Below, in pieces: positions 40,144 through 58,443 of a stretch of 64,000 nucleotides of DNA. The DNA is taken from assembly GCA_023489335.1 (NCBI GenBank), contig JAMDCP010000011.1:135057-199056 (forward strand). Reading direction: 5' to 3'. The DNA is from Deltaproteobacteria bacterium. GTDB taxonomy: Bacteria; SZUA-79; Acidulodesulfobacterales; Acidulodesulfobacteraceae. Under the pieces are notes generated by a model, which ran no database searches, was not told where the DNA came from, and saw only the letters and a list, made by a program, of their open reading frames with translations. How positions within the stretch are numbered: the stretch's first letter is position 1; each line of letters starts with the position of its first letter. A program made the position numbers and the translations under genes.

Positions 40144-40188
40144 TGGTAGGCACGGGCGGTCTCGAACCGCCGACCCCTACCGTGTCAA
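40144..40188 (-). repeat. 45-bp att repeat: a duplicated 3' half of tRNA-Val(GAC)
   Basis: Identical to 51085-51129 (tggtaggcacgggcggtctcgaaccgccgacccctaccgtgtcaa). Confidence 0.9.
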
Positions 40189-40307
40189 ACTAAAAAGATA
40201 AAATTAACCAAATGGGCTTTTTACCTTCAGTTATAGATTTATTAACGGATTGACGGCATTATGTATTTTACGATATTTTCTATATATTCTTATGCTTTCG
40301 GATATTT

Positions 40308-40329
40308 TGTGTGACAGTTGTGTGACAGT
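40308..40329 (+). repeat. Tandem GTGTGACAGT(T) pair, candidate integrase arm-type site
   Basis: The 21-mer gtgtgacagttgtgtgacagt at 40309-40329 is identical to 51018-51038 at the other end of the element. Confidence 0.6.
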
Positions 40330-40423
40330 AATTTTTTTCAAAAATTTAAAATTATTCTTTATTTTATATTTTTTTAAAAAGTTTTTAAAAAATAGGCAAG
40401 ACACGGCAAGACAGCAAGACAAG

Positions 40424-40480
40424 CCTTATAAATACTGCATTTGTTTGTCTTGCTCTTGTCTTGCCGTCTTATCGCATAGA
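40424..40480 (+). repeat. 57-bp repeat, copy A (copy B is at 42744-42800; 4 mismatches)
   Basis: ccttataaatactgcatttg...cttgtcttgccgtcttatcgcataga. Copy A is preceded by an imperfect inverted copy of its GTCTTGCC-rich half (40395-40422). Confidence 0.8.
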
Positions 40481-40621
40481 AATATAAAGGTTTTTATATT
40501 TTTATAACATCAGCTTTTAAAAACTCATCATATATATTTTAAATTAATATTTAAATAATATTAAAATAATACCAATTTGAATATGCTGGAGTAATACCAT
40601 AATAATTAATTAAATCTTATT

Positions 40622-41008
40622 TTAACGCTGTTTTTTTACAACAACAGCATATATTGATTCAATGCATTTTTCAAGTCCGAAATTTAGACTCTCATCTTTT
40701 AGATTATAAATTTCTTTTACCTTGTAAACCAAATTCTCAAGTTCTATATCCTTTTTATTTTGCGCTTCTTTTTTACCGGTATTAAAATCCGATATGAAAT
40801 AATTCAAATCGACTTTAAAAATTTCTGCCAAGTTTAGAAGATAATCAAGCGGTATTTTGAATTTTCCAGTCTCGTAGCTATATATTTGAGTATATGCAAC
40901 ATTTAGCATCTCCGCCAATTTTTCTTGAGAAAACTTTAATTCCCGCCTTTTAATTCTTATCTTAAAACCGATATGTTTAAATAGCGCTGCATTTTTATGT
41001 TTAGGCAT
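40622..41008 (-). CDS. XRE/cI-like HTH transcriptional regulator
   Basis: HTH_3 pattern IKRRELKFSQEKLAEMLNVAYTQIYSYETGKFKIPLDYLLNLAEIF. Confidence 0.8.
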   Translation of the reverse strand: MPKHKNAALFKHIGFKIRIKRRELKFSQEKLAEMLNVAYTQIYSYETGKFKIPLDYLLNLAEIFKVDLNYFISDFNTGKKEAQNKKDIELENLVYKVKEIYNLKDESLNFGLEKCIESIYAVVVKKQR

Positions 41009-41023
41009 AAAATTAATTTCTCA

Positions 41024-41046
41024 ATATTTAAGTTTAACTTAAATAT
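41024..41046. promoter_or_regulatory. Perfect 23-bp palindrome ATATTTAAGTTtAACTTAAATAT (candidate operator)
   Basis: Lies 16 bp upstream of the XRE start codon. The half-site ATATTTAAGTT recurs at 41106-41116 inside the divergent promoter. Confidence 0.6.
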
Positions 41047-41100
41047 CTATTATTAAGACAATTTATAGGAAATACTATAATCTTAAACATAAAATAATTA

Positions 41101-41129
41101 TTGACATATTTAAGTTAAAGATGTAAAAT
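41101..41129 (+). promoter_or_regulatory. Near-consensus sigma70 promoter for the cargo OMP gene
   Basis: TTGACA at 41101-41106, 17-bp spacer, TAAAAT at 41124-41129. Confidence 0.6.
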
Positions 41130-41188
41130 CCTGTCAAGAATATTAAATTATTGAAATCTTTAATTTACATTAATTATCGGGAGGAAAA

Positions 41189-41926
41189 ATGAAGAAAATC
41201 TTTTTACTTATAATAGCTTTATTTTTAAGTATTTTTATAGTGAACCCTTCTTATGCACAACAAATGTCAAAATACGGCTATCCAACAGGTAATCAAAATT
41301 CAAGCAACACTTATGGTAATTGGTATTTGGGTGTTGGCGTTGGTTATGCCCACATAATCGGCTTAAAATCGGATATTAATCAATTAGGGAATAACTTGCA
41401 GACTATCGATCCTGATTTGTCAGGTTCGATAAGCTCAACCATAAGCACTGTTGGAACAAACTTGGATTTTGGATATAGCTTCAATAAATTTTTGAGTCTT
41501 CAGACAGGCTTTGACTGGTTAGGCAATTACAAATTTAAATTAAATCTCGATGATACTGTACACAATTTTTATATTAATGAAACTGTTAATGCTTATATAT
41601 ACACAATTCCAATAAAGGCGGTTGTATCGTACCCATTCAATGATGGCTTTGCAGTTTTTGGCGCAGTTGGCGGCGATTTTTGGTTTGTTAATGAATCTGG
41701 AAGCGTTTCATCTAATATACCTGGCGTCAATGGGACAGCATCGCAAAATAAAACAGGTATAGCCCCCGTTTATAGCATAGGAATCAGATTAAGACCTGTA
41801 AAATCTGCCTGGGGCTTAAAACTTGAGTATAACTATTTTCAAAATTTATTCAACAGCAACCAAACAATTTACAAAAGTCATTATAATGTGGAAGAGCTTG
41901 CACTTTTAGGAGAATATAGATTTTAG
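41189..41926 (+). CDS. Outer-membrane beta-barrel protein (small OMP, OmpA-TM/OmpW-like class)
   Basis: Signal peptide ...PSYAQQ, alternating amphipathic strands, and a C-terminal ...LLGEYRF with terminal Phe. Confidence 0.65.
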   Translation: MKKIFLLIIALFLSIFIVNPSYAQQMSKYGYPTGNQNSSNTYGNWYLGVGVGYAHIIGLKSDINQLGNNLQTIDPDLSGSISSTISTVGTNLDFGYSFNKFLSLQTGFDWLGNYKFKLNLDDTVHNFYINETVNAYIYTIPIKAVVSYPFNDGFAVFGAVGGDFWFVNESGSVSSNIPGVNGTASQNKTGIAPVYSIGIRLRPVKSAWGLKLEYNYFQNLFNSNQTIYKSHYNVEELALLGEYRF

Positions 41927-41959
41927 TCCATCTGCAAAGTAGGGGTTAAATGCAAAAAC

Positions 41960-41980
41960 GGGGGGGGTATCCCCCCCCCC
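41960..41980 (+). terminator. G8-TAT-C10 hairpin
   Basis: ggggggggtatcccccccccc lies immediately after the OMP gene. Confidence 0.45.
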
Positions 41981-42025
41981 TTGAAAGACTGGGTAAATAA
42001 AAAGGAATAAGAAAACTAAAAAAAA

Positions 42026-42682
42026 TTGTCAATGAATACAATATATAAAATATTTTATTCTAAAAAAGTGCATTTAATTATACTGCCCTTATTGCTTATT
42101 GGCAGTTTTATTTTAACTGGGTGCGCGACCGCTCCAGTATTTTCTGATGTTACAATTCCTCAGAAAAACATAAGTAAAGATAAATTTAAAATTGCCATAA
42201 AAAAACAAGATATAATCTTTACCTCAGGTTTTTTTACCGGAACCCCGCTTACAAAAAAATCAGTTGCCATATATAACTGCATCGGGTTAGAAATATATAA
42301 AAACTTCCATGACGCAGCCATATTGATAGTCAATAAAAAGCCTTTAAATTCAAATATTATCTATATTCATGATTTCAGAAAAGCAATTACCTGGGCGGTT
42401 GTTAATCCTGTCGGCATATTAATACCAATCTCCGCTTTGGTTATTAGCGAACCTATGAAGGCGACATTTAAAGCAAGCGTGCTTATCAACGGGAAAAATT
42501 ATACAGTTAAGGCTTACGGCTCAAGAACCCAAAGGCTTATGTCATTCAGCCCGGACAAAATTTTAAGAAAAACCTGCGGTAATTTTACTGAAAAATTAAC
42601 AACACTTCTCATTGTAAAAAAACTGCCGCGGGCGGTATCGCAACCACACACAAGCCCACAAGCGATACTTCGGAAGAATTAG
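42026..42682 (+). CDS. Hypothetical lipoprotein
   Basis: Lipobox FILTGC. No recognisable family. Confidence 0.5.
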   Translation: MSMNTIYKIFYSKKVHLIILPLLLIGSFILTGCATAPVFSDVTIPQKNISKDKFKIAIKKQDIIFTSGFFTGTPLTKKSVAIYNCIGLEIYKNFHDAAILIVNKKPLNSNIIYIHDFRKAITWAVVNPVGILIPISALVISEPMKATFKASVLINGKNYTVKAYGSRTQRLMSFSPDKILRKTCGNFTEKLTTLLIVKKLPRAVSQPHTSPQAILRKN

Positions 42683-42743
42683 GAATAATTAATTTATCTT
42701 TTTCAAAGTATTTTAAATAAAAACAGTAAATCGGCATCCCAAC

Positions 42744-42800
42744 CCTTATAAATACTGCATTTGCCTGCCTTGCCCTTGTCTTGCCGTCTTATCGCATAGA
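42744..42800 (+). repeat. 57-bp repeat, copy B
   Basis: See copy A at 40424-40480. Contains TTGCCG-17 bp-TATAAA, which is promoter-like. Confidence 0.8.
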
Positions 42801-43261
42801 TAGTATAAAACCGCACGCATTTGCGATTTAAAGCCTATAACCAGCAAACCCGCATAAATACTACATTATAGGCACATTAAGAAACAACAGTTTCCCAATG
42901 TGGTCTTGATTATTAAATAATGGCTAATTTAAAATATCCTATCCTAAACTTTTATATTTTGGATATTTTAAAAATGCTTTATTTAATTATTGTTCAGGTT
43001 AATCAGTTTAAAAAGTCTGCTCACTTTTTCCTCGCTCTTATTGGACTGTAATTTTGACTATTATTCCTAATAATTAAGCATATTAATTATTACAGCACAT
43101 AGCCGTTAATAGCCTTTTTATCGTTTTTATAATAATATTTTTAATAGTTTTAAAATTATATTACTTGACAATCATATTCACGCATATTAACATCGCACAC
43201 CGCTAATGCAGATATTTACAGACTTTAGCGGTAAAATTAACCTAAATTAAGGGGGCGTGTT

Positions 43262-43489
43262 ATGAAAATGATTAAAATCGATGTTAGCGGGATGATGTCT
43301 GAAAAATGCGTTGATAAAATTAATGAGGCTATTAAAACTATTCACGGTATAAAAATGGTTGACGCCGTTTTAAATGAAAATGCCGTTTATATTATCATCA
43401 AAAACAATATCGATATAGAAGGTATTAAAAATATTATCAGGAAGGCAGGTTATATTCCGGGACTCCATATTAGCTGGGTTGTATCCTAA
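43262..43489 (+). CDS. Small HMA-fold-like protein with a degenerate metal-binding motif
   Basis: Pattern IDVSGMMSEKCVDKINEAIKTIHGIKMVDAVLNEN...IRKAGY resembles CopZ/HMA, but the GMxCxxC motif is replaced by GMMSEKC (a single Cys). Confidence 0.5.
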   Translation: MKMIKIDVSGMMSEKCVDKINEAIKTIHGIKMVDAVLNENAVYIIIKNNIDIEGIKNIIRKAGYIPGLHISWVVS

Positions 43490-43620
43490 AACAGCCTTGA
43501 AAATCTTTCACAACGGTAAAACCAAGCGTTTATTCAGGACTGTTAATGGTTTTCTATTAACCGCAAATCAGAGGCTTATGAATAAAGGCTCTGACGACAG
43601 CATCGCATAAAATAGCCCAA

Positions 43621-43641
43621 AAACGCACACAAATGCGTTTT
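43621..43641. terminator. Hairpin between convergent genes
   Basis: aaacgca pairs with tgcgttt (7-bp stem), with A/T runs on both sides. Confidence 0.4.
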
Positions 43642-43667
43642 AAGGGTTTTTATAATTTTTATTGGCT

Positions 43668-45215
43668 TTAACTTTGGGGTTTCCGTTTTAATTTAAATAT
43701 TTTTACATATCTATTTGGTGGAAGGAAATATTCAATAATGTGTAAATAAATAATCAATTTATTATTTTCTTCAAAATTAAATGTTAGCGGAAATTCATTA
43801 ACCTCAGATGCAGGTATATATTTAAAAGGTTTCAATTTTTCTTGAATTTTTGGGACAGATACTGGAATTGCTGAAAAATCATCTTTTATTAGAAATCCTT
43901 TTTTATTTTCTTTATCATTAGGGTATAAAGACTGAATTTGTTCAGTTAAAAAATCACTAATGTTATTGGCTTCTTCTGCCGGAAATTCTCTCGTAATTCC
44001 TTGAATGCCATTTGTAAAAGGCAATTTAGACTCATAACTATTTTCCTTCTGTTTGTAATTGAATTTTTCTATTTCCATCATATAATGTTTCTCGTCTTCG
44101 CAAAATTCTTTTTTAAACCCCTCATATTCCCTTTTCAATTCTTTACTGTTTTTTAAATAACTTTTAAAAAAAGCGTAAAATTCCTTAGATGGCTTACTCC
44201 CTATATTGTCATCATTATATTCAATACCATCGTAATTAACATTGAAGTTTGCGAGAATTAATTTTCCACTATCACTAATTGCCGCTTTTTTTATGGAAAG
44301 TTCTAAACATTCTTTGGAATATTTCATGCTGTTAGCAACATAATCGGCAAAGGGGCTAACCATACATATAATAAAAATGTAATATTCCACATACTGTTTA
44401 TCATCTTCCAGTGTTTCCTTTAAATACAAATCCAGAAAGTTGATAAACTTTCTTAAATCCGCATTACGCTCTTTCCTCGAATTTAAAATTTTTTTAGGTT
44501 CGATTTTATCAAGAGAAAAATTTAGAGGCATGAGTTTAAAAGTATCTCCTGTCTTAATTTGCTTTAATTTGTTAATTGCGTCTTTATATAATTTATCAGG
44601 AGAATTAAAGTATATTTTTTGGATTTTATCATGCTCTATCGGTTTTATTACGGTAAATTTACCGCCTGTTTTATATATCTTTTTTAAATGATTAATTAAA
44701 AAATACGGCTGTTCTTCTATCATTCTGCAAGGGTCGTTTTCAGGATATTCTAAAATGAATCTATGCCCTATTTCGTATATTAGATTTACATATCCTGACA
44801 AATACGGTTTTTCTTTTATAATTTTATTAATTGATTCAATATAATCTTTCTTATTTTCAAGGGACAGGTTAAGTTTATTGTGAATAAGCCTGTTTTTAGG
44901 GCTGTTTTTTAATTCTTCAATTATATCCTCGATGTTTAAATTTTTTATATTTTCTAACAATTCTATAAGTTTATCTATCGATTTTATGTCTTCCTTATCT
45001 AAGGTTTTATTAAAAATACATCTGAAGTTATCAATAATATATTGTATAAAATACGGGTCAAAAGACGAGCCTTTAAGAACTTTTGGCATTATTGAAGTCA
45101 AAAACAAATTAGGCTGTAATCGAAATATAAATTTATTTATCGCTTTATCGTCCATAATTTTTGAAAATATATGCCTTAATGTTAGATAAAATAAGCATTT
45201 TAATAAAAATAACAA
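43668..45215 (-). CDS. Hypothetical 495-515 aa protein, no recognisable domain
   Basis: Long uninterrupted ORF in very AT-rich DNA. The likely start is Met21 (MDDKAINK, nt 45155). Lys/Asn/Glu-rich; no motif identified by eye. Confidence 0.55.
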   Translation of the reverse strand: MLFLLKCLFYLTLRHIFSKIMDDKAINKFIFRLQPNLFLTSIMPKVLKGSSFDPYFIQYIIDNFRCIFNKTLDKEDIKSIDKLIELLENIKNLNIEDIIEELKNSPKNRLIHNKLNLSLENKKDYIESINKIIKEKPYLSGYVNLIYEIGHRFILEYPENDPCRMIEEQPYFLINHLKKIYKTGGKFTVIKPIEHDKIQKIYFNSPDKLYKDAINKLKQIKTGDTFKLMPLNFSLDKIEPKKILNSRKERNADLRKFINFLDLYLKETLEDDKQYVEYYIFIICMVSPFADYVANSMKYSKECLELSIKKAAISDSGKLILANFNVNYDGIEYNDDNIGSKPSKEFYAFFKSYLKNSKELKREYEGFKKEFCEDEKHYMMEIEKFNYKQKENSYESKLPFTNGIQGITREFPAEEANNISDFLTEQIQSLYPNDKENKKGFLIKDDFSAIPVSVPKIQEKLKPFKYIPASEVNEFPLTFNFEENNKLIIYLHIIEYFLPPNRYVKIFKLKRKPQS

Positions 45216-45324
45216 GTTAACTATAGAACTTTTCAGGTCGTCTTATTGATTGGTGTATTCTAATTATAATACATTTGTATATTTATTTTTTATTATACAT
45301 CAACAAAGAAAATAAATAAAAATT

Positions 45325-45546
45325 ATGAAAAAATTAAGTTTCACTGTAAAAGAATTTTCAAAGATTCACGAGATGGATCAATTTTCGACTTACAGAGCCA
45401 TCTGGCAGGGCAGGCTAAAAGCTATAAAAATCAACAGCAAGTGGTTTATTTCTCTGAATGAATCGAACAATTTTAAAAAATACAAAAAGGGAGGTGGTGA
45501 GAATGCCGACAAAGCGGGAACTTTACGAAGAAAACGAAGCGCTTAG
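45325..45546 (+). CDS. Excisionase/AlpA-like HTH protein
   Basis: Pattern FTVKEFSKIHEMDQFSTYRAIWQGRLKAIKINSKWFI (HTH_17-like). Confidence 0.5.
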   Translation: MKKLSFTVKEFSKIHEMDQFSTYRAIWQGRLKAIKINSKWFISLNESNNFKKYKKGGGENADKAGTLRRKRSA

Positions 45547-45661
45547 AGAAATTATTGACGATGTCAAAACAAGACTAAGTGACCTCGAATCTGACGATGA
45601 AAACGACTCAGAAAATGAAGATGAATCTGAAGAGAGCGAAAATTCGGAAGATGAAGACTGA
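45503..45661 (+). CDS. Small coiled-coil/acidic protein
   Basis: RBS GGGAGGTGGTGA before the ATG at 45503. MPTKRELYEENEALREIIDD... followed by an acidic tail. Confidence 0.4.
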   Translation: MPTKRELYEENEALREIIDDVKTRLSDLESDDENDSENEDESEESENSEDED

Positions 45662-45670
45662 AAGCGTTGA

Positions 45671-45702
45671 GCCCCTGCTTTTTTAGCAGGGGCTTTCATT
45701 TT
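45671..45702 (+). terminator. Rho-independent terminator
   Basis: gcccctgct pairs with agcaggggc, followed by tttcatttt. Confidence 0.65.
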
Positions 45703-45815
45703 AACTTTAACGGCATTTGTCTCAATGGCTAATAGTTCTCTACCTGTTAGTCTGTTTTCAAGCCTTAAAACGCAAATTTGAAAGTTTTTTAAAAGACTTA
45801 ATATCAAGGGTCACT

Positions 45816-46490
45816 ATGGAAATAAAAATCGTTAAAATTGGGGCAATTAAAATCAATGAAAGAAACCGGCAATACAACGCTTCCAAAGCTAAAGAGTTAG
45901 CCGATAGCATACAGGAAATAGGACTTTTGCATCCGATAATTATCGATGCGGATAATGCCCTCATTGCCGGTTTGCACCGCCTTGAAGCCGCAAAGATATT
46001 GGACTGGGAAGAAATACCCTGCAATGTGTTTGATATCATTACCGATAACGCCGAAGAACTTGCCGAAATCGACGAAAATTTAATAAGGGCTGAACTTACG
46101 GAGCTTGAAAAAGCGGATTTACTATGCCGTGCAAAAGAGATACATGAGATTAGACACCCCGAGAGTCTTAAAGCAAATATTACAAAAAGAAATTTAAAAC
46201 AGTTTGTCGCCGAAAGTGAAATTATTTCACTTTCGGATAAAGATAGCAATAGCAATAATTTGCTCAAAATTAAGGATAAAAGTTTTACTAAGGCAACTGC
46301 TGACAAAATCGGCATATCGTCACGAAGTATCTTTCAATCTATTCAAATATCGAAAAACATATCGCCGGAAATTAAAGAAAAAATTAAAAGCACTTCGCTT
46401 GCCGACAATAAAACTGAATTATTAATGTTTGCAAGGATTGAACCAGATAAACAAAAAAAAGGTTATAGATATTATCGTCGAGAAGAATAA
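45816..46490 (+). CDS. ParB/Srx-like nuclease-domain protein
   Basis: Pattern IKINERNRQYN...IGLLHPIIIDADNALIAGLHRLEAAKILDWEEIPC. Confidence 0.75.
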   Translation: MEIKIVKIGAIKINERNRQYNASKAKELADSIQEIGLLHPIIIDADNALIAGLHRLEAAKILDWEEIPCNVFDIITDNAEELAEIDENLIRAELTELEKADLLCRAKEIHEIRHPESLKANITKRNLKQFVAESEIISLSDKDSNSNNLLKIKDKSFTKATADKIGISSRSIFQSIQISKNISPEIKEKIKSTSLADNKTELLMFARIEPDKQKKGYRYYRREE

Positions 46491-47292
46491 AAAGGTCAAG
46501 GAAGCGATTTATCAAGTGAGGCGGGAAAGGTTTCATGATTCAGTGAAAAAGGCATCACAGGCAACAGCTCGGGCTGATACAGACATATTGAGTGGCATAG
46601 AGGTATCAGTGGGCGATGTCTTTAAATTGGGCGAACATATACTAATATGTGCCGACAATACCGACCCTGCCGTTATCGAATATTTACGCTTGTTTAAGTT
46701 TTCTTTCTCTTTCGCCGACCCGCCCTATAATTTAGGGTTAGCCGACTACGATAGGGCTGAATTCACATGGATGCAGGATTATTTAACGGAAATATCAGAT
46801 ATAGTTGCAGTTGCGCCAGGAATTAATAATATAAAGTTTTTTTTAAAAAATACGGAAATGGCTTACAAGTGGCTTCTAATATGCCACGTGAAGAATTTGC
46901 ACTCTGGATGTGCAATCGGCTATACGCATTATTATCCAGTTTTTCTTTTTTCTAATTTGAAATCGATAAATTTTGGGATAAAAGATTTGTTTGATATTAC
47001 TCTGCCGCCTATGCCGGAGGAAGACCGAGAAATTGCAAATAAGAGGCAAAAACCGTCGGGATTACTAACTTATATACTGAACAGCTTTACGAAAGAAAGT
47101 GATTTTATTATAGATCCTTTTGCAGGAAGCGGTCAGACTTTAATGGTCTGTGAGGCATTGGGCAGGAAATGCATAACTGTTGAAATACTGCCGGATATGG
47201 TTCGGGCGATTATACATCGTTTTGAAAACAAGTTCGGCATAAAAGCCGTTAAAATTAACACTTTACAAGTGAAAAATACATATTGTGTATGA
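46429..47292 (+). CDS. DNA methyltransferase (N6-adenine or N4-cytosine, beta class)
   Basis: DPPY motif (FADPPYN) precedes the SAM-binding motif IIDPFAGSGQT. Confidence 0.75.
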   Translation: MQGLNQINKKKVIDIIVEKNKKVKEAIYQVRRERFHDSVKKASQATARADTDILSGIEVSVGDVFKLGEHILICADNTDPAVIEYLRLFKFSFSFADPPYNLGLADYDRAEFTWMQDYLTEISDIVAVAPGINNIKFFLKNTEMAYKWLLICHVKNLHSGCAIGYTHYYPVFLFSNLKSINFGIKDLFDITLPPMPEEDREIANKRQKPSGLLTYILNSFTKESDFIIDPFAGSGQTLMVCEALGRKCITVEILPDMVRAIIHRFENKFGIKAVKINTLQVKNTYCV

Positions 47293-47453
47293 TTTATAAT
47301 TTACTATTTTTTACTTATTATTCCGTTATTTCTTTTATTATAAATTAGACATAAAAATTCGCACTCTTTGTGAATATTTATCGCTGATAATTTTTTTTAA
47401 AAAGGGATATGTTAATACTATTATTAAAAAAATAAACAATTTGACAATTAATT

Positions 47454-48728
47454 ATGAAAATAAACAGTTATCAAATTAAATCACAAAAAAACGCTCTCTC
47501 TGAGCAAGCATTACTTGCGGGGATTATAATTGATAATAGAAACTTCGAAAAGGCTTCCTTTTTGGTTCCAGCGGATTTTTATGACAGCCGGAATAGGGCG
47601 ATTTTCGCAAGGGTAAAGGAACTTTATAATTCAGAGAAGGCTATCGATTTAACGAGCTTTGCGGGCACGGAGCACGAAGATTATATACTTGGATTAATGG
47701 GGTTGCCGGATGGACTGCTAAATATCGAGAAATATATCGAAGAAATCAAGGAAGAAGCTATTAAGAGGCAGAGGCTTTCTCTAATGGACGATTTCAAAGA
47801 AAATAAAATAAACTACGATGAACTAATAAACTTACTTCAAAAATTATACGTTGCAAAAAAAGAACCTATCAGCAGTTCTCAATTAATTGAACATATAAAA
47901 CCGATTCAGGAAAAAAATATCTTCGGAATAAAAATACAATATGGAGCAATCTTTTCGATTGCCGGTGCCACGTCTGCCGGCAAGACTGAATTTTCGCTCG
48001 AAATAGCGGATATTCACGCTAAACAAGATGGCTGCGTAAGCATATACTGCGTTTTCGAAGGCGGAATTAATGAATTTGCAATCAGGTTAAAAAAGAAAAA
48101 TATAAATAACGAAAATCTATTCATGCTTCATAATCCGGACATTAACGACATCAGAGCGGCGATAGATAGATTTAAGGATAGAAAAGTATTGGTTATCATA
48201 GACTATTTACAGATGTTTGCCCGAAGACTTCAGGCGAACGACAATAAACCTTGTGATTTTTTAAGGAAATATACGAGCTATATATACACTAAATTAGACG
48301 AAATAAGGGCTAAATATAATGTTTGTTTTTGTTTGTTATCGTCGCTCAACAATCAGGGAATAGGCGAATTAAGGCTATTACAGAATTTCGACGATATTGT
48401 CTTCCTTAAGTCGATAAAAGAAGACGGGAACGTTCAATACGACAACGATTATTTATATGCAATCATTTTTGCGGATGATGCAGAAAAAAACGAAAATAAA
48501 TGGTCGTTAGGACGAAAAAAAATAGATAAAATGAGAAAATATATCTTATTGCACCCCGCAAAACCTTCAAGGATCGGAGAGGAAGCGGCGGATATTCTCT
48601 ATATTTATGATGTTGAGAGCGGCAGATATCAAAAGATTGATAAGACAGCGCAAAATTTTCAAGATAATAATAAGGAGCAAAATAATGAAACGCAAAAAGA
48701 CGACTACTATGCCCAATACGGTATTTAA
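47454..48728 (+). CDS. DnaB-like replicative helicase
   Basis: DnaB N-terminal-domain pattern (SEQALLAGIIIDNRNFEKA...FYDSRNRAIFARVKELY) plus a RecA-like P-loop (AGATSAGKTEF). Confidence 0.7.
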   Translation: MKINSYQIKSQKNALSEQALLAGIIIDNRNFEKASFLVPADFYDSRNRAIFARVKELYNSEKAIDLTSFAGTEHEDYILGLMGLPDGLLNIEKYIEEIKEEAIKRQRLSLMDDFKENKINYDELINLLQKLYVAKKEPISSSQLIEHIKPIQEKNIFGIKIQYGAIFSIAGATSAGKTEFSLEIADIHAKQDGCVSIYCVFEGGINEFAIRLKKKNINNENLFMLHNPDINDIRAAIDRFKDRKVLVIIDYLQMFARRLQANDNKPCDFLRKYTSYIYTKLDEIRAKYNVCFCLLSSLNNQGIGELRLLQNFDDIVFLKSIKEDGNVQYDNDYLYAIIFADDAEKNENKWSLGRKKIDKMRKYILLHPAKPSRIGEEAADILYIYDVESGRYQKIDKTAQNFQDNNKEQNNETQKDDYYAQYGI

Positions 48729-49566
48729 GCAACAGGTCGGGAATACGACAGTGTCTTTTGTCAGGGGAGGAATATTCTCCCCTGTAGTAAAGTCCCCGAA
48801 ACGTCCGCAGGATGATATTATTTTTAAAAATCACTGGGCAAAGTTAACTATATTAAAAAAATACAATCGAATGACTCAGGTTCATATTAACATTCTTGAC
48901 TGCATCATTGCTTCCGCCATAAAAATAAATAAAGGGTTTGTTAAAATGAGTAATGGTGAGATTCGACTGTTTTTTGAACCATACACGGTTCTTAAAATGC
49001 TCGAACAAAAGGGGAAAAATTATAAATGGCTCAGGGGTAAGTTGGACGATCTTGTTGCAACATTAATCGAAATAGAAACGGATAAAAATACGGCGCATGA
49101 AGGGATACTTCATTTTCACAAATGGAGTAAAACCCTGAATCCTAATGCCGTTAAAAAAACATCAAGATTTAAAAGCGGCGCCGGATATTATTATGTGGCG
49201 GTAATTAACCCGGGATTTGCTAATTTTTTCAATATTGAGATTAATATGAATTATATCAAGATACTGCCCGACATTATCCGGTTGCATGACGGCATTCTTC
49301 AAGCGTTTGTCCGGTTTTGTATAAGCCATAATGAACTCAACATGCCACTTATAGATGTTTTATATAACATAAGAGCAGAAATAAGCGACGACCGGCAAAG
49401 ACAGAGAACTATTAAAAAAATAAACGACAATGCCGGATTGCTTTATGATAAATTCAAAATAAAATTAGAAAATGGAATAGTATATCATAGACACGCCGAC
49501 ATTGAAGGCATATACTTTATATCGCCGGAGACATCCGCTGATAAAGGTGTAGACGATAAAAGGTAA
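48685..49566 (+). CDS. Hypothetical protein, candidate iteron-binding replication initiator
   Basis: RBS AAGGAG before the ATG at 48685. Overlaps the end of the helicase gene and is followed directly by iterons. No family recognised by eye. Confidence 0.4.
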   Translation: MKRKKTTTMPNTVFKQQVGNTTVSFVRGGIFSPVVKSPKRPQDDIIFKNHWAKLTILKKYNRMTQVHINILDCIIASAIKINKGFVKMSNGEIRLFFEPYTVLKMLEQKGKNYKWLRGKLDDLVATLIEIETDKNTAHEGILHFHKWSKTLNPNAVKKTSRFKSGAGYYYVAVINPGFANFFNIEINMNYIKILPDIIRLHDGILQAFVRFCISHNELNMPLIDVLYNIRAEISDDRQRQRTIKKINDNAGLLYDKFKIKLENGIVYHRHADIEGIYFISPETSADKGVDDKR

Positions 49567-49592
49567 CTGGAAAGCATTGAAAAATAAGGCAA

Positions 49593-49663
49593 CGACAACA
49601 TTTAATACCAAGCCCGACAACATTTAATACCTAAAATGGTTAAAAACGACAACATTTAATACC
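49593..49663 (+). repeat. Three perfect 17-bp iterons CGACAACATTTAATACC
   Basis: Copies at 49593-49609, 49615-49631 and 49647-49663 (spacing 22 and 32 bp). Confidence 0.9.
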
Positions 49664-49666
49664 TGT

Positions 49667-49725
49667 TCAAGAGATATTCAAGAGAATATCAAGAGCGATT
49701 TTAACTCTTAAGGCGTTAAAATCGC
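49667..49725 (+). repeat. Three TCAAGAG units at 11-bp spacing, then an 11-bp-stem hairpin
   Basis: TCAAGAG at 49667, 49678 and 49689. GCGATTTTAAC (49695-49705) pairs with GTTAAAATCGC (49715-49725). Confidence 0.8.
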
Positions 49726-49763
49726 CTATTAAAAAAGAAGATTTTTTACTTTTAAGAATTAAT

Positions 49764-49985
49764 ATGCTAAAGCTAATCGACATAAAAGCGTTATCAGAAA
49801 TATTAAGCGTCAAAAGCTCCACTCTCTACCAATGGGTAGAGCTTGGTAAAATTCCGCATTACAAATTAAACGGCGCAGTAAGATTCAACCATAGCGAGAT
49901 ATTAGATTGGCTCTCCGCTTGCAAAATCGAACAGGTAGGGTATAATACCATTGAAGGTAGAAAGCCCCGAAAAGGAGGTGCATAG
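49764..49985 (+). CDS. AlpA/excisionase-family HTH protein
   Basis: Pattern IKALSEILSVKSSTLYQWVELGKIPHYKLNGAVRFNHSEILDWL. Lies directly upstream of the integrase. Confidence 0.7.
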   Translation: MLKLIDIKALSEILSVKSSTLYQWVELGKIPHYKLNGAVRFNHSEILDWLSACKIEQVGYNTIEGRKPRKGGA

Positions 49986-49992
49986 TAATATT

Positions 49993-51084
49993 ATGGGGCT
50001 AATCAGAAAACCAAACTCCCGTTTTTGGTGGATAAATATTAAAGTCGGCACTAAAAGAATATTTGAATCGACGAAAACGGAAAACAAGAAAAAAGCGCAA
50101 GAAATTTTAAGCATAAGGCATTCCGAGTTATTAACCGGACAAAATAGCCGGATATTAGAGCCGCAAGAGAAAGAAAAAACTAATATTTATACATTTAAAG
50201 ACTTATGCGCAAGTTATTTAGATTGGTGCAAAGGCAGGCAAGCATCCTATAAAATTAAAAAGTATGTGATACCGAAATTGCAAGAAAGGTTTAAAAATAT
50301 GACTTTAAACGAATTTAATTATAGGACGATAGAAAATTTGCAATCCGATTATATAAAAGCAAATTACAAGCCTGCTTATATCAATAAAATAACGGCAATT
50401 GTAAAACACATGTTTAATAAGGCTTTGGATTGGGAAATGGTCACAGAAGAAGATTTAAAGCGGGTCAGAAAAGTAAAACAGCTTAAGGGCGAAAGCAAGC
50501 GTTTGAGGTATTTATCCGATGAAGAGGCGGAAAGGTTAATATCTAATTGTGAGCCTTATTTAAAGCCGATTGTGATAACGGCATTAAATACGGGGATGAG
50601 AAAATCGGAAATATTTAACCTGACTTGGGACAGGGTGGATATAAATAACCGTATAATCCTGTTGGACAAAACAAAGAACGGCGAAAGACGGGAAATACCG
50701 GTTAACAATACCCTATACGAAACATTATCGGGTATGGTAAGGAATATCCATTGCCCTTATGTATTTTATAACCCTAAAACCTTAAAGCCTTACGATAATG
50801 TCAAGCGTAGCTTTGCAACGGCACTCCGCAAATCGCATATTCTTGATTTTCATTTCCACGATTTAAGGCATACATTCGCAAGCAGGTTAGTTATGGCAGG
50901 TATAGACTTAACAACGGTTAAAGAGCTTTTAGGACATAAGGACATTAAGATGACCTTAAGGTATTCTCATTTATCACAAGCGCATGTTAAGAATGCAGTA
51001 AGCGTTTTGGATAAAAAGTGTGACAGTTGTGTGACAGTTGGGTATGATGAAGAAATTGTTAAGCCCGAAAAACCTTATAACATA

Positions 51085-51090
<6 letters not shown>
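49993..51090 (+). CDS. Tyrosine site-specific integrase
   Basis: Catalytic region ...TGMRKSE...HFHDLRHTFAS...LLGHKDIKMTLRYSHL. The stop codon lies inside the 3' end of the tRNA. The ORF is also open from 49951. Confidence 0.85.
51018..51039 (+). repeat. Second copy of the tandem GTGTGACAGTT pair (within the integrase 3' end)
   Basis: Identical 21-mer to 40309-40329. Confidence 0.6.
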
Positions 51091-51160
<70 letters not shown>

Positions 51161-51322: not shown

Positions 51323-51361
51323 TATGACAATTTGTCATAAATGATTTGACAATTTGTCATA
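51323..51361. promoter_or_regulatory. Two tandem palindromic operators TGACAAtTTGTCA, 22 bp centre to centre
   Basis: Palindromes at 51325-51337 and 51347-51359. The first extends to the 17-bp palindrome TATGACAATTTGTCATA. Confidence 0.65.
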
Positions 51362-51558
51362 AATCTAATTTTTATTATAAAAATTAAAAATCAAATCCTG
51401 GATTTTAAAGGAATTATTTAACTTAAAAATAATTATGATTTCGGTATATATCTTGCATTCCATATCATTATAAACTTAATAAACTTAGAAAACGGTATTT
51501 TTATCTTTTAAAATTTTTTTTTAAAAATAGAGATAAAATATAAAAAGGAGGGCTATTT

Positions 51559-51957
51559 ATGGCAGAGAATCAAAAATTGGCAATAATAATTGCCTCTGAG
51601 GAATATGAAAAATCTCATGTAGCATCAATGATTGCATCCGTTGCGGCGGTTTCCGGCGTCGATGTTTCTGTTTTTGTAACTATGAATGCAGTTTATAATT
51701 ATTTAAAGGAAAATGTAGAGAAAAAGAATTTTACAGGCGGTAAGATTTATAATCAGATTAAGGAAAAGAAAGCCGCCATGTTTTATGAACTGTTTGACCA
51801 GGCTAAAATGCTCGGAGGCCTTAAGATTTATGTGTGTTCCATGGTAATGGATATTTTAGGAATCGAAAAAGACGATTTAATCGATATTGTCGATGATAAT
51901 TTAGGTCTTGCCGCATTTCTGGGGATTATGGAAGGGGCGGAAACCATTACATTTTAA
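51559..51957 (+). CDS. Cytoplasmic DsrE/DsrE3-like sulfur-relay protein
   Basis: RBS AAGGAGGG. Rossmann-like start KLAIIIAS and a conserved Cys in KIYVCSMVMDILG; 132 aa. Sits next to tusA. Confidence 0.65.
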   Translation: MAENQKLAIIIASEEYEKSHVASMIASVAAVSGVDVSVFVTMNAVYNYLKENVEKKNFTGGKIYNQIKEKKAAMFYELFDQAKMLGGLKIYVCSMVMDILGIEKDDLIDIVDDNLGLAAFLGIMEGAETITF

Positions 51958-52174
51958 TTTATTTATATTTATGATGCGCATGCGTATGAATTAGAAATTA
52001 AATTGTTTTTTTAATTTAATCTTAAATACGAGTGGATAACATGTAATTAAAACCGTAAAATAGCGATAAGTTTAACGATGATACGGTTTTAAGATAGATA
52101 AATATGTATATCATATCTTTTATTATGTGATTTTGTTTTAACACTTAAATATTTTTATTTTGGGGGTATCGATT

Positions 52175-52435
52175 ATGGCAGATGTAAATTTAAAAGACAT
52201 TAAACCGACTATTACTGTGGATGCAAGAGGGACATATTGTCCCGGGCCGCTTATGGAGTTAATAAAGGAAATGAGGCAGCAGCCTGTCGGCTCGATAATA
52301 GAACTAATCTCAGGGGATGCCGGCAGCGCAAAGGATGTTCCCGAGTGGTTAAGCAAGGTTCATCAGGAATTTATGGGCGTTATCGAAGAAACGGGCTATT
52401 GGAGAATTTTTTCAAAGAAGGTTAAAGAGATGTGA
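52175..52435 (+). CDS. tusA: TusA-family sulfurtransferase
   Basis: The motif DARGTYCPGPLMEL contains the CPxP active-site signature. Confidence 0.8.
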   Translation: MADVNLKDIKPTITVDARGTYCPGPLMELIKEMRQQPVGSIIELISGDAGSAKDVPEWLSKVHQEFMGVIEETGYWRIFSKKVKEM

Positions 52436-52509
52436 GCTTTAGCTAAAACACCTTTAAATTAAAATTAATTTAACTTTTAATGTAATTAATGTAATTAGGG
52501 AGGCTGTTA

Positions 52510-53668
52510 TGTCCAAAAGGGCATTTATGCGGCAAACCTATAGCAAGAACAATCTTGCCGCCCTTAAAAGTCATTAGTTCATGGCGAAGCTTTAAACAGG
52601 CATCTACCTCATAAAACCAGTGTCCACCCTCTCTCAATCCTGGTATCCGATAAACCAGAGCATTTTTATCAACCAGGCCTTTTGTATATGCTTTTTGGTT
52701 TAAAGCACCATGATGAACTTGTCAGAGACGAAAGGAATTTACTAGACCCGATGGTTGAACTGCATCTTCACCCCGCAGTTAAAATCGATAAGGATAAAAA
52801 TGAGGTTCATCTTAAAAACGGCGTGGTTATAAAATATGACATTGTGGTTATTGCAACAGGGTCAAGGCCTGCTCCAGAAATGATACCAGGATTGAGAGAG
52901 GGTGGACACTGGTTTTATGAGGTAGATGCCTGTTTAAAGCTTCGCCATGAACTAATGACTTTTAAGGGCGGCAAGATTGTTCTTGCTATAGGTTTGCCGC
53001 ATAAATGCCCTGTTGCTCCGTTAGAGGTTACATATATGCTGGACGATTGGTTTAAGCAAAGAGGGATAAGGGATAAGGTTGAATATACTTATACTTATCC
53101 GATAGGGAGACTCCACGGACTTGAACCCGTCGCTCATTTTGCTGCCAAAACATTTCCAAAGCACGGGATTTTGACCGAGACCTTGTTTAATATGAAGGAG
53201 GTCGATGCTAATAAAAGAACCATCACAAGTTTAGAGGGCGTAACTTTAAAATATGATATATTGCTCACGATTCCGCCGCACAAAGGGGCACAGGTGATTG
53301 AAGATTCCGGCCTTGGACAGAATGGGTTTATACCGACCGACAAATTTACGCTTAAGATGGAAGGAACAACAAATGTTTATGTTGTCGGGGATACGACAAA
53401 CCTTCCGATAAGCAAGGCGGGTTCGACGGCTCACTTTGAATCGGATATTATCGTCGAAAATATTGCCTCCGAGTTAAGAGAGGGTCTAACGCCGTTCAGG
53501 TATGACGGAAAGGTTTTCTGTTTTATAGAAACAGGTTTAAGCAAAGCAACATATATTATGTTTGATTATAATACCCCGCCAAATCCCGTTGCTCCGTCAG
53601 CGCTTATTCACTGGTTTAAATTAACATATAATAAGGTTTACTGGTTAACCCCGATGGGTGTTCTTTAA
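52510..53668 (+). pseudogene. sqr: Sulfide:quinone oxidoreductase-like flavoprotein lacking its N-terminal FAD-binding segment
   Basis: RBS GGGAGG followed by ATG (MSK...) runs straight into the inverted duplicate and stops at 52575. The homologous frame resumes at ...DKPEHFYQPGLLYMLFG and continues through the pyridine-nucleotide disulfide oxidoreductase core (IVVIATGSRP, YVVGDTTN). No GxGxxG motif is present. Confidence 0.6.
52518..52647 (-). repeat. 130-bp perfect inverted copy of sqr-internal segment 52882-53011
   Basis: The reverse complement of 52518-52647 is identical base for base to 52882-53011. The two copies are 234 bp apart. Confidence 0.9.
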
Positions 53669-53693: not shown

Positions 53694-54572
53694 ATGGCTG
53701 AAAATGCAAACGAGGCTCAGCATGGCTCAAAAATCGATATCGGCGCCGCCCTAACTAAGAAACTCACGGAAAAACCGCAAGCCTTGGAACATTTATTAAA
53801 TATTATCGATAGATTAGACACTCTCGATGAATTTAGCGCAATACTTCAAGCCCAGAAGGAAAGCGCAACGGATGCAATGGTTCAAAGGGTGGCTGATAAT
53901 ATCACAACTAGTCTTTCTATGCTGGATAGTTTTTCCGGCGAAGAACAACTTTCCATGATAAAAACGGCCGGCGAAAAGTCGGAAAGCCTGAAAAAGGGTA
54001 TTGAAAAGCTTGACGAGCTCGAGAGGTCGGGCACGATCCAAATACTTAAGGAAATGGGCGATTTTGCCGCTGGTTTTAGCAAGGGAACCACGGATGCGAT
54101 GATTGAGCGTATGGCAGGCACAGCCGAAAAACTGGCGGAATTAACCGACTTAACATTGCAATATAACATAAAGCCGCTCCTTGACGCAGGTCAGGGATTT
54201 GTTGACAGCAACACATTGAATGACCTTGTTGAACTGGCAAACGGCGTGGCTTCGGCAAGAAGAATGATGACGGACGGGCTTATCGACAGAGCCGTCGGAA
54301 CAGGTTTGGATATGGTGGAAGTCCTTTTGACTCATGTAGATGTAAAAGAACTCATAAAAGCTCTCGATTGCTCGACGCATGAGACCTTAACCGAAGCAAG
54401 CGATGAAAAATATCATAAAGGAGGTATTTTTTCATTGATTTCCTTGACAAAAGACCAGGATGTTATGTTTGGGCTTAAATTTATGATGCTTTTAGCTAAA
54501 AATTTGACAAAAAATTTAAGAGAAAACCAGCAAAGCATATTTATAAGTTCATCTTTTGGCAGGGAAGATTAA
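53694..54572 (+). CDS. DUF1641-like protein, apparently with two repeats
   Basis: Two similar helical segments (LEHLLNIIDRLDTL...TDAMVQRVADN and IEKLDELERSGTIQIL...TDAMIERMAGT). DUF1641 genes commonly follow sqr/NADH-oxidoreductase genes. Confidence 0.45.
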   Translation: MAENANEAQHGSKIDIGAALTKKLTEKPQALEHLLNIIDRLDTLDEFSAILQAQKESATDAMVQRVADNITTSLSMLDSFSGEEQLSMIKTAGEKSESLKKGIEKLDELERSGTIQILKEMGDFAAGFSKGTTDAMIERMAGTAEKLAELTDLTLQYNIKPLLDAGQGFVDSNTLNDLVELANGVASARRMMTDGLIDRAVGTGLDMVEVLLTHVDVKELIKALDCSTHETLTEASDEKYHKGGIFSLISLTKDQDVMFGLKFMMLLAKNLTKNLRENQQSIFISSSFGRED

Positions 54573-58156: not shown

Positions 58157-58382
58157 TTACGGAATTATGTAAGATTGCTTCGTCGCTGACCATCTTTACC
58201 GGCATAAAAGCCGTTGGCTTTTATTGGCCGCCGGTAAAGATATCTCGCAATGACATGCGGCAGTCATTGCGAGTGTAGCGGACGAAGTCCAGCATATCTT
58301 TGACTGCGTTTATAAAACCAACGGTTTTATGCAGACAAAGATGCTCACCAATCTCGGTTTGTCAAGTGCATAATTCCGTTAA
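58157..58382. mobile_element. Foldback (MITE-like) element of about 225 bp between cobT and cobS
   Basis: Terminal inverted repeat ACGGAATTATG (58159-58169) / CATAATTCCGT (58369-58379). Central 10-bp stem TCGCAATGAC/GTCATTGCGA. The two arms are largely complementary. No ORF. Confidence 0.55.
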
Positions 58383-58443
58383 TATTAATAATAAAAAAAA
58401 TAAAAGATAACGAAACCTAAACAATAAACGGACTACGGGAATA

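What the first reader, a model, noticed from the sequence alone, without database searches (positions are those of the whole stretch)
52518..53011. sqr is decapitated by a perfect 130-bp inverted duplication of its own interior
The reverse complement of 52518-52647 equals 52882-53011 at every base. The inverted copy begins 8 nt after a good RBS and ATG (MSK...), and it replaces the region that should encode the N-terminal Rossmann beta-alpha-beta with GxGxxG. The authentic frame resumes at ...DKPEHFYQPGLLYMLFG. As assembled, the flavoprotein cannot bind FAD, while dsrE, tusA and the DUF1641 gene remain intact. The perfect identity indicates a very recent template-switch or foldback event, a recombination-active inverted repeat able to flip the 234-bp segment between the copies, or a chimeric assembly.
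Basis: seen in the sequence. Interest (0 to 1): 0.65.

Follow-up and report, generated by a model that had tools for sequence, protein, structure and literature searches.

The report
One-off inverted copy breaks sqr
In this one metagenome-assembled genome, the start of a sulfide:quinone reductase gene is overwritten by an upside-down copy of the gene's own interior, a known kind of DNA-copying error or sequencing/assembly chimera, while every other dataset of the same bacterium has the normal gene, so it is a private lesion and not new biology.

Summary
The reverse complement of 52518-52647 equals 52882-53011 at all 130 bases, and this is the only inverted repeat of 25 nt or more in the 64 kb window.

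Nine independent assemblies and the Logan contigs of nine public metagenome runs carry the same locus, almost base-identical. All have an intact 379-aa type III SQR beginning MSKRVVIVGGGVGGTIIANLL.

In the window, 110 native nt (codons 5-38, including the GxGxxG Rossmann motif) are replaced by the 130-nt inverted copy of codons 118-161. The net +20 nt causes a frameshift. The deposited annotation calls only a 326-aa remnant.

Both junctions lie in microhomology: AGGG on the left and TGGTATC on the right. The joint probability is about 4e-5 under blunt random joins. One switch-and-return template switch explains every difference (four-point order 1-4-3-2, mirror 3-2-1-4).

The junctions are absent from every indexed run and collection, so the allele is private to this NCBI MAG (contig 309,485 bp). 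I could not obtain that MAG's reads. My estimates are about 0.5 for a real recent in-cell mutation and about 0.42 for an in-vitro or assembler chimera.

It is not a programmed switch and not a family trait. Interest is low.

The parts
52498..52511 (+). Native sqr ribosome-binding site (GGGAGG, 52498-52503) and start codon (ATG, 52509-52511)
   Evidence: Identical in all nine intact loci. There the 379-aa gene starts 74 nt after the tusA stop.
52509..52577 (+). Abortive reading frame MSKRAFMRQTYSKNNLAALKSH* (22 codons plus stop). It runs from the real start codon into the inverted copy.
   Evidence: Three-frame translation.
52518..52521 (.). Left switch point: 4-nt microhomology AGGG, shared by the native 5' end and the inverted donor
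   Evidence: Extended imperfect match AGGGtAgTTATcGtCGG vs AGGGcAtTTAT-G-CGG.
52518..52647 (-). Arm 1: inverted copy of sqr codons 118-161. It sits where native codons 5-38 (the Rossmann GxGxxG region) should be. The strictly non-native part is 52522-52640.
   Evidence: Exact reverse complement of 52882-53011. Absent from nine assemblies and nine runs, which instead carry 110 native nt AGGGTAGTTATCGTCGGAGGAGGAGTCGGCGG...GTGGTATC.
52641..52647 (.). Right switch point: 7-nt microhomology TGGTATC
52648..52881 (+). Spacer between the arms: native sqr codons 40-118, in the native orientation
   Evidence: 100% identical to the intact alleles.
52882..53011 (+). Arm 2, the donor: native sqr codons 118-161 (MIPGLREGGHWFYEVDACLKLRHELMTFKGGKIVLAIGLPHKC). 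This includes the second dinucleotide-fold strand and the first catalytic Cys.
52688..53668 (+). Residual sqr ORF (326 aa, MLFGLKHH...), as called in the deposited record. It has no FAD-binding N-terminus and no RBS of its own.
   Evidence: P0126 is identical to this translation. It is listed from NCBI/nr on one contig of 309,485 bp, with names withheld as for window proteins.
51559..52435 (+). Upstream genes of the cluster: dsrE-like (51559-51957) and tusA (52175-52435). Both are unchanged.
   Evidence: Pfam DsrE/DrsE_2 and TusA. Identical products in L001-L009.
53694..54572 (+). Downstream DUF1641-like repeat protein, 292 aa here and 366 aa elsewhere. An in-frame 222-nt deletion lies between two 148-nt direct repeats; the single remaining copy is at 54001-54148.

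Best explanation
A single switch-and-return template switch by a DNA polymerase created a private, very recent null allele of a type III sulfide:quinone reductase, in the population behind this MAG (a close relative of Candidatus Acidulodesulfobacterium ferriphilum).

Described on the + strand:
1. Synthesis left the normal template after ...ATG TCC AAA AGGG (52521).
2. It re-primed through the 4-nt match at 53012-53015 on the opposite strand.
3. It copied 53011 back to 52882.
4. It returned to the original template through the 7-nt match TGGTATC (52641-52647).

The mirror description is equivalent. A nascent minus strand snaps back on itself at GATACC/GGTATC, copies itself, then returns at CCCT/AGGG.

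The result overwrites codons 5-38 (beta1-GxGxxG-alpha1-beta2). It adds a net 20 nt, shifts the frame, and leaves a perfect 130-bp inverted repeat around a 234-bp spacer. No functional flavoprotein can be made from this allele.

Shown: the structure, the ancestral state, the microhomologies, and the privacy of the allele. Inferred: that a polymerase made it. Inferred with only about even odds: that this happened in the cell and not in the tube.
For: - Exact 130-nt inverted identity, unique in the window.
- The ancestral allele is known. Nine independent assemblies (L001-L009; MEGAHIT, NCBI MAGs, Logan) and contigs of runs X1, X2, X3, X5, X7, X11, X12, X21 and X22 have the intact 379-aa gene, with flanks 99.9-100% identical.
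- One replacement of fragment 1->4 by the reverse complement of fragment 2->3 explains every difference. This is exactly the four-point model of PMC5453318.
- Microhomology lies at both junctions (4 and 7 nt). The joint probability is about 4e-5 for random blunt joins in this sequence. There is also extra imperfect complementarity at the left junction.
- De Bruijn mis-joins need overlaps of about k-1 nt, not 4-7 nt (my knowledge of assemblers).
- The assembly is otherwise base-accurate. Only 1 of 114 homopolymers of 7 nt or more differs from the metagenomes.
- The window carries real-looking private SNPs, at 40746, 40778 and 40833. So it represents a population distinct from the indexed runs, in which a private allele is plausible.
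- A rearranged path that replaces the native one in a 309-kb contig suggests it was the dominant allele in the source data (inference).
Against: - No read-level evidence. The junction words are in no indexed run, no GTDB representative contig and no JGI metagenome contig.
- Phi29 and other polymerases make inverted chimeras in vitro, with 2-21 nt of complementarity (PMC1855051).
- At 130 nt copied across 234-490 nt, the event is larger than typical short-range template-switch mutations.
- Two other private length differences lie within 6 kb (A8 vs A7 at 46453; the 222-nt repeat deletion at 54.0 kb). The latter sits at a proven assembly trouble spot: L002 has a 100-N gap there, and a k=31 contig of X7 collapses it.
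- There is no sequence decay or compensatory change that would prove time spent in a living lineage.
Confidence: 0.5

Rival explanations
1. Artefact: the organism has the normal sqr. The rearranged molecule arose in vitro, by template switching during whole-genome amplification or library PCR, or was introduced by bin re-assembly, gap closing or long-read bridging. The assembler then carried it into the consensus.
For: - The allele is seen in one assembly only. All 9 other assemblies and 9 runs are native, some at 500-1700x.
- Junction words are absent from every index searched.
- Each junction on its own looks like a classic MDA chimera. More than 85% of those are inverted, and 70% have 2-21 nt of complementarity.
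- Two more private length anomalies lie nearby, one at a repeat that other assemblers also mishandle.
- MAG pipelines used for this clade include re-assembly of recruited reads with SPAdes --careful. It is not known whether this applies to this particular MAG.
Against: - Two junctions that return precisely to the original template are needed. A single MDA or fold-back chimera gives only one junction, and would continue as a hairpin.
- Overlaps of 4-7 nt are far too short for a graph mis-join.
- In ordinary shotgun data, a rare chimeric path beside a well-covered native path is normally pruned (my knowledge of assemblers).
- The rest of the window is base-perfect against deep metagenomes.
Confidence: 0.42
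2. A programmed or recombination-active invertible element. The 130-bp repeats would flank a 234-bp invertible segment that switches sqr expression, possibly using the tyrosine recombinase encoded 1.4 kb upstream.
For: A perfect inverted repeat with a short spacer lies at the 5' end of a gene, and an integrase gene is at 49951-51090.
Against: - The repeat is absent from all relatives and from all other samples of the same strain.
- One arm is simply coding sequence, and it replaces essential codons.
- Neither orientation of the spacer restores a Rossmann fold.
- The integrase belongs to a 10.9-kb element bounded by 45-nt att repeats in tRNA-Val (40144-40188 and 51085-51129).
Confidence: 0.03
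3. The gene is functional as it stands: either this SQR family lacks the N-terminal dinucleotide-binding motif, or it uses the downstream start codon.
For: A 326-aa ORF remains and is annotated in the deposited record.
Against: - 120 of the 120 best homologues listed cover 95-100% of the 379-aa native protein, and all but four are exactly 379 aa. All 12 inspected start with the GxGxxG strand.
- PDB SQRs align from residue 4.
- The remnant has no RBS.
Confidence: 0.01

Closest known systems
Short-range template-switch mutations (Ripley's quasipalindrome model; the four-point model of Loytynoja & Goldman 2017, PMC5453318)
   Same: A fragment is replaced by the reverse complement of nearby sequence in one switch-and-return event, which creates a perfect inverted repeat. 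The switch-point order is 1-4-3-2, the mirror of the common 3-2-1-4 class. There is microhomology at the switch points and an imperfect pre-existing complementarity at one junction.
   Different: The event is much longer than usual: 130 nt copied, with jumps of 234 and 490 nt. There was no substantial pre-existing quasipalindrome. It is seen in a single MAG without read support.
Inverted chimeras of multiple displacement amplification (Lasken & Stockwell 2007, PMC1855051)
   Same: Inverted orientation, intramolecular jumps of a few hundred nt, and priming on 2-21 nt of complementarity.
   Different: Those chimeras have one junction per event. Here there are two junctions, and the molecule returns exactly to the original template. 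There is no evidence that the library was amplified.
Tandem inversion duplications and fork template switching (snap-back models in Salmonella, from my own knowledge; ODIRA in yeast, PMC10766183)
   Same: Snap-back or leading/lagging-strand switching at short inverted matches generates inverted copies.
   Different: Those events duplicate kilobases and keep all the original sequence. Here 99 nt are lost and only 119 nt are gained.
Type III sulfide:quinone reductase (NCBIfam NF049943-like; related to human SQOR 6oi5/8dhk and Acidianus 3h8i)
   Same: The native allele has the N-terminal GxGxxG and both redox cysteines (HKC160P and VFC in FCFIETG), aligned to the human SQOR cysteine motifs VKCAGAP and TSCPL. 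It is 379 aa, like thousands of homologues. It sits in a dsrE-tusA-sqr-DUF1641-like cluster.
   Different: The window allele lacks residues 5-38 and is frameshifted, so it is a pseudogene as assembled.

Membership tests
Template-switch mutation (four-point model) | The novel segment is the exact reverse complement of nearby sequence on the same molecule | tested here: met
   130/130 identity; the donor lies 234 nt downstream.
Template-switch mutation (four-point model) | The ancestral state, without the repeat, is documented in close relatives | tested here: met
   Nine assemblies and nine runs carry the native 110 nt between flanks that are 99.9-100% identical.
Template-switch mutation (four-point model) | A single switch-and-return event explains all differences | tested here: met
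   Native[..52521] + rc(53011..52882) + native[52641..] reproduces the window exactly.
Template-switch mutation (four-point model) | Complementarity at the switch points | tested here: met
   4 nt and 7 nt; joint P about 4e-5 in 1e6 simulated random joins.
Template-switch mutation (four-point model) | The event is present in the organism's DNA (independent reads or PCR) | not testable with these tools
   The source reads are not indexed. Junction words are found in no run or collection.
In-vitro amplification chimera (MDA type) | Inverted junction with short complementarity | tested here: met
   Both junctions qualify individually.
In-vitro amplification chimera (MDA type) | The library was made from amplified DNA, and chimeric reads are a minority at the locus | not testable with these tools
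   The library type and the reads of the source MAG are unavailable.
Site-specific invertible switch | The inverted repeats and the invertible segment are conserved in relatives, and both orientations are seen | tested here: not met
   The repeat is absent from all other assemblies and runs. The nearby integrase belongs to the tRNA-Val island.
Sulfide:quinone reductase (type III) | N-terminal FAD-binding beta-alpha-beta with GxGxxG | tested here: not met
   Present in the native allele and in all homologues. Overwritten in the window allele.
Sulfide:quinone reductase (type III) | Two redox-active cysteines | tested here: met
   HKCP and FCFIETG align to the human SQOR motifs VKCAGAP and TSCPL. 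Best NCBIfam hit is SQR_III_seleno, E = 5e-102, below its 525-bit cut-off.
Sulfide:quinone reductase (type III) | Sulfide-dependent quinone reduction | not testable with these tools
   This needs an enzyme assay of the native 379-aa protein.

The most novel reading that the evidence does not exclude
All private differences between this genome and the otherwise base-identical metagenome populations fall within or just right of a 10.9-kb integrative element in tRNA-Val. That element encodes its own DnaB-like helicase, a ParB-methyltransferase and an integrase. There are four such differences:
- a 3-SNP cluster at 40.7 kb;
- the A7->A8 frameshift at 46.45 kb;
- the sqr template switch at 52.5 kb;
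- the 222-nt repeat deletion at 54.0 kb.

The most novel reading not excluded is that in-situ, error-prone replication of the element runs into flanking chromosomal DNA. This would make a local hotspot of slippage and template-switch mutations, of which the sqr lesion is one. The clustering is only suggestive (all four events within 13.5 of 64 kb, P about 0.03). The two differences inside the element are also explained by ordinary exchange of element variants.
Probability: 0.05. Interest if true: 0.55.

Novelty: already known. Interest (0 to 1): 0.18.

Why it matters
If real, this is a clean, unusually long natural example of a switch-and-return template-switch mutation. The ancestral allele is known to the base. 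It knocks out sulfide oxidation in one population of an uncultivated acid-mine-drainage bacterium.

If it is an artefact, it is a useful caution. This MAG is apparently the best-assembled genome of its species: its 309-kb contig is the longest seen here, and it may be the species representative. It under-reports sqr, so metabolic inferences from this genome alone would be wrong. The other genomes show the species has an intact dsrE-tusA-sqr cluster.

Either way, no new kind of system is involved.

Tried and rejected
1. I looked for the source reads or another carrier of the rearranged allele.
   - Junction-spanning queries to the run index returned no run for the left junction. For the right junction they returned only runs holding the single non-diagnostic word.
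   - Exact junction patterns had no hits in genome contigs or metagenome contigs.
   - A native flank pattern was also absent from genome contigs. The window's own record is probably masked there.
2. Exact-product look-ups of the 328-aa, 326-aa and 292-aa ORFs and of the XRE protein with the look-up of encoding contigs found nothing on record. The listing of cluster members later showed the 326-aa and 292-aa products do exist in NCBI/nr on one 309,485-bp contig.
3. A8-specific words at 46453, used as a marker for the source sample, were held by no run.
4. Graph mis-join: rejected, because the overlaps are only 4 and 7 nt.
5. A pre-existing strong quasipalindrome: rejected. There is only weak similarity beyond the junctions, and the native gene has only three inverted 9-mer pairs (inverted matches of 9-10 nt) in that region.
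6. A noisy long-read assembly: rejected. Only 1 of 114 long homopolymers differs.
7. The 354-nt perfect tandem repeat at 4780-5446 as a second assembly anomaly: rejected. The same 432-aa product is on 6 other contigs, and depth there is raised.
8. Tandem Repeats Finder on the downstream gene of L001 found nothing. The 148-nt direct repeats were found by BLAST and a script instead.

Full report
**Observation.** The reverse complement of 52518-52647 equals 52882-53011 at all 130 positions. The repeat finder extends the arms to 134 nt at 99% identity, with a 234-nt spacer. No other inverted 25-mer match exists in the 64 kb window. As single-stranded DNA the region folds at -200 kcal/mol, z = -32 against shuffles.

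The sqr start codon is at 52509-52511, behind GGGAGG at 52498-52503. The MSK frame terminates after 22 codons. It is out of frame with the downstream sqr frame, which reads ...LVSDKPEHFYQPGLLYMLFG.

**What the locus normally looks like.** The TusA product (86 aa) is encoded on at least 22 other contigs. In the nine loci fetched, tusA is followed 74 nt later by an intact 379-aa Pyr_redox_2 gene. These loci are MEGAHIT contigs from ENA, Logan contigs, and the NCBI MAGs GCA_021831505.1, GCA_028067835.1 and GCA_021806265.1.

BLAST shows their flanks are 99.9-100% identical to the window up to 52528 and from 52641 onward. Between the flanks, all nine carry the same 110 nt: AGGGTAGTTATCGTCGGAGGAGGAGTCGGCGG...GATGTGGTATC. 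This encodes MSKRVVIVGGGVGGTIIANLLAKKMRHELKKGELVIDVVSD.

Logan contigs of nine public metagenome runs show the same native sequence, at depths up to about 1700x. The runs come from mine-tailings, mine-drainage and sediment samples in three studies. In them, 92 other letters replace window 52529-52640, and the loose ends read CGTCGGAGGAGGAGTCGGCGG.

So the window allele replaces 110 native nt with 130 inverted nt. That is a net +20 nt. It destroys residues V5-V38 (beta1, G9GGVGG14, alpha1, beta2) and shifts the frame.

**The protein.** The native protein is a type III-like SQR.
- Best NCBIfam hit: SQR_III_seleno, E = 5e-102, below its special cut-off.
- Best PDB relatives: human SQOR (E about 1e-31) and the Acidianus enzyme 3h8i. 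The alignments start at residue 4 and cover both redox cysteines.
- More than 4,000 homologues were found. All of the best 120 cover 95-100% of the 379-aa native protein, and all but four are exactly 379 aa. Every one of the 12 inspected begins with the GxGxxG strand.

The idea that the family lacks this motif is therefore refuted.

The closest named relative is Candidatus Acidulodesulfobacterium, an acid-mine-drainage lineage in which sqr is reported as expressed.

**Anatomy of the event.** The first four bases of the copy (AGGG) and the last seven (TGGTATC) are shared between the native sequence and the inverted donor. In one million simulated random joins in this sequence:
- microhomology of 4 nt or more occurs with P = 0.023;
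- microhomology of 7 nt or more occurs with P = 0.0009;
- both together occur with P about 4e-5.

The left junction has further imperfect complementarity: AGGGtAgTTATcGtCGG against AGGGcAtTTAT-G-CGG. The global alignment score lies about 4 sd above shuffles.

Native[..52521] + rc(53011..52882) + native[52641..] reproduces the window exactly. This is the definition of a single switch-and-return template switch in the four-point model. The switch-point order is 1-4-3-2, the mirror of the common 3-2-1-4 class that creates inverted repeats (PMC5453318).

GC skew is positive throughout, and nearly all genes are on the + strand. The fork therefore probably moves left to right. Two routes fit, and which one applies is inference:
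- a stalled leading strand switches to the exposed lagging-strand template; or
- a lagging nascent strand snaps back on itself.

Overlaps of 4-7 nt are far too short for a de Bruijn mis-join, which needs about k-1 shared bases (my knowledge of assemblers). Blunt ligation or an arbitrary insertion would not give microhomology at both ends.

**Is it in the organism?** I could not test this. The two junctions are absent from:
- the run index;
- GTDB representative contigs;
- JGI metagenome contigs.

Exact look-up shows that the 326-aa remnant (window 52688-53668) and the 292-aa downstream protein exist in NCBI/nr on exactly one contig of 309,485 bp.

I compared the whole window with Logan contigs of four deep runs. 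It is otherwise base-identical to the dominant strain of runs X1, X3, X5 and X21. The exceptions are:
- three SNPs at 40746, 40778 and 40833;
- an A8 tract at 46453-46460 where the runs have A7;
- the sqr event;
- a 222-nt deletion between 148-nt direct repeats at 54.0 kb.

Only 1 of 114 homopolymers of 7 nt or more differs. The assembly is therefore not a noisy long-read product. The private SNPs show the source population is not simply one of the indexed runs.

*For a real mutation:*
- The double junction returns exactly to the template.
- The assembly is base-accurate.
- The rearranged path displaced the native one in a 309-kb contig.

*For an artefact:*
- Only one assembly shows it.
- Polymerases make inverted chimeras in vitro with 2-21 nt of complementarity (PMC1855051).
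- There are neighbouring private length anomalies. One is at a repeat where another MAG has a 100-N gap and a k=31 contig collapses.
- Bin re-assembly practices are used for this clade.

My estimates are about 0.5 for a real in-cell event, about 0.42 for an in-vitro or assembler artefact, and a few percent for everything else.

**Rejected readings.** A programmed invertible switch is excluded.
- The repeat is absent from all relatives.
- One arm overwrites essential codons.
- Neither spacer orientation restores the gene.
- The nearby integrase belongs to an integrative element bounded by perfect 45-nt att repeats, formed by the 3' part of tRNA-Val(GAC) (40144-40188 and 51085-51129).

**Verdict.** The mechanism is a known one, and the allele is private to one MAG. 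The species itself has an intact dsrE-tusA-sqr cluster. This is either an unusually long natural template-switch mutation or a chimeric artefact. In both cases it is a known kind of thing, and interest is low.

Noticed in passing
window 40144-51129: A 10.9-kb integrative element sits in tRNA-Val(GAC). It is bounded by perfect 45-nt direct repeats (40144-40188 and 51085-51129, the 3' part of the tRNA). It encodes an XRE repressor, HTH_17 proteins, a ParB-N6/N4 methyltransferase, a DnaB-like helicase and a tyrosine integrase (49951-51090). The region left of the tRNA differs between assemblies: L002 has the same element, L004 a version 87% identical, and L001/L003/L005/L007 different cargo.
   Followed up: partly
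window 46453-46460: A poly-A tract is A8 here but A7 in all four runs laid and in L002. The extra base splits a ParB_N + N6_N4_Mtase fusion gene (491 aa in L002) into 45717-46490 and 46429-47292. A8-specific words are in no indexed run. This could be a phase-variable tract or a consensus error.
   Followed up: partly
window 54001-54148 (gene 53694-54572): The DUF1641-like repeat protein is 292 aa here and 366 aa in at least 17 other records. An in-frame 222-nt deletion lies between two 148-nt direct repeats that differ at one base (54036 A/C). L002 has a 100-N scaffold gap at this spot. A k=31 contig of run X7 also lacks the unit but carries the other base, so the site is both recombination-prone and assembly-prone.
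   Followed up: partly
window 40746, 40778, 40833 (gene 40622-41008, minus strand): Three substitutions private to the window lie within 88 nt of the element's XRE-family HTH gene. Two are non-synonymous (S59N, T88I). They are the only base substitutions against runs X1, X3, X5 and X21 in the whole window. No nearby direct or inverted donor sequence was found.
   Followed up: partly
window 4780-5446 (gene 4660-5958): A perfect 354-nt tandem repeat (1.9 copies) lies inside a LysM x4 + NlpC/P60 cell-wall hydrolase gene. The identical 432-aa product is on 6 other contigs and depth is raised in the metagenomes, so the repeat is genuine.
   Followed up: yes
window 51325-51364: Two exact copies of TGACAATTTGTCATAAAT lie 22 nt apart, each containing the palindrome TGACAA-T-TTGTCA. 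They sit about 200 nt upstream of dsrE and look like a tandem operator for a regulator of the dsrE-tusA-sqr cluster.
   Followed up: no
window 49591-49663: Three 19-nt direct repeats (AACGACAACATTTAATACC; start-to-start spacing 22 and 32 nt) lie between the element's 319-aa ORF and the integrase gene. They could be iterons or arm-type binding sites.
   Followed up: no
window about 58160-58440: An intergenic palindromic repeat element (for example GCAATGACATGCGGCAGTCATTGCGAG) has about three-fold depth in all runs, and contigs break at it. It is a multi-copy repeat family of this genome.
   Followed up: no
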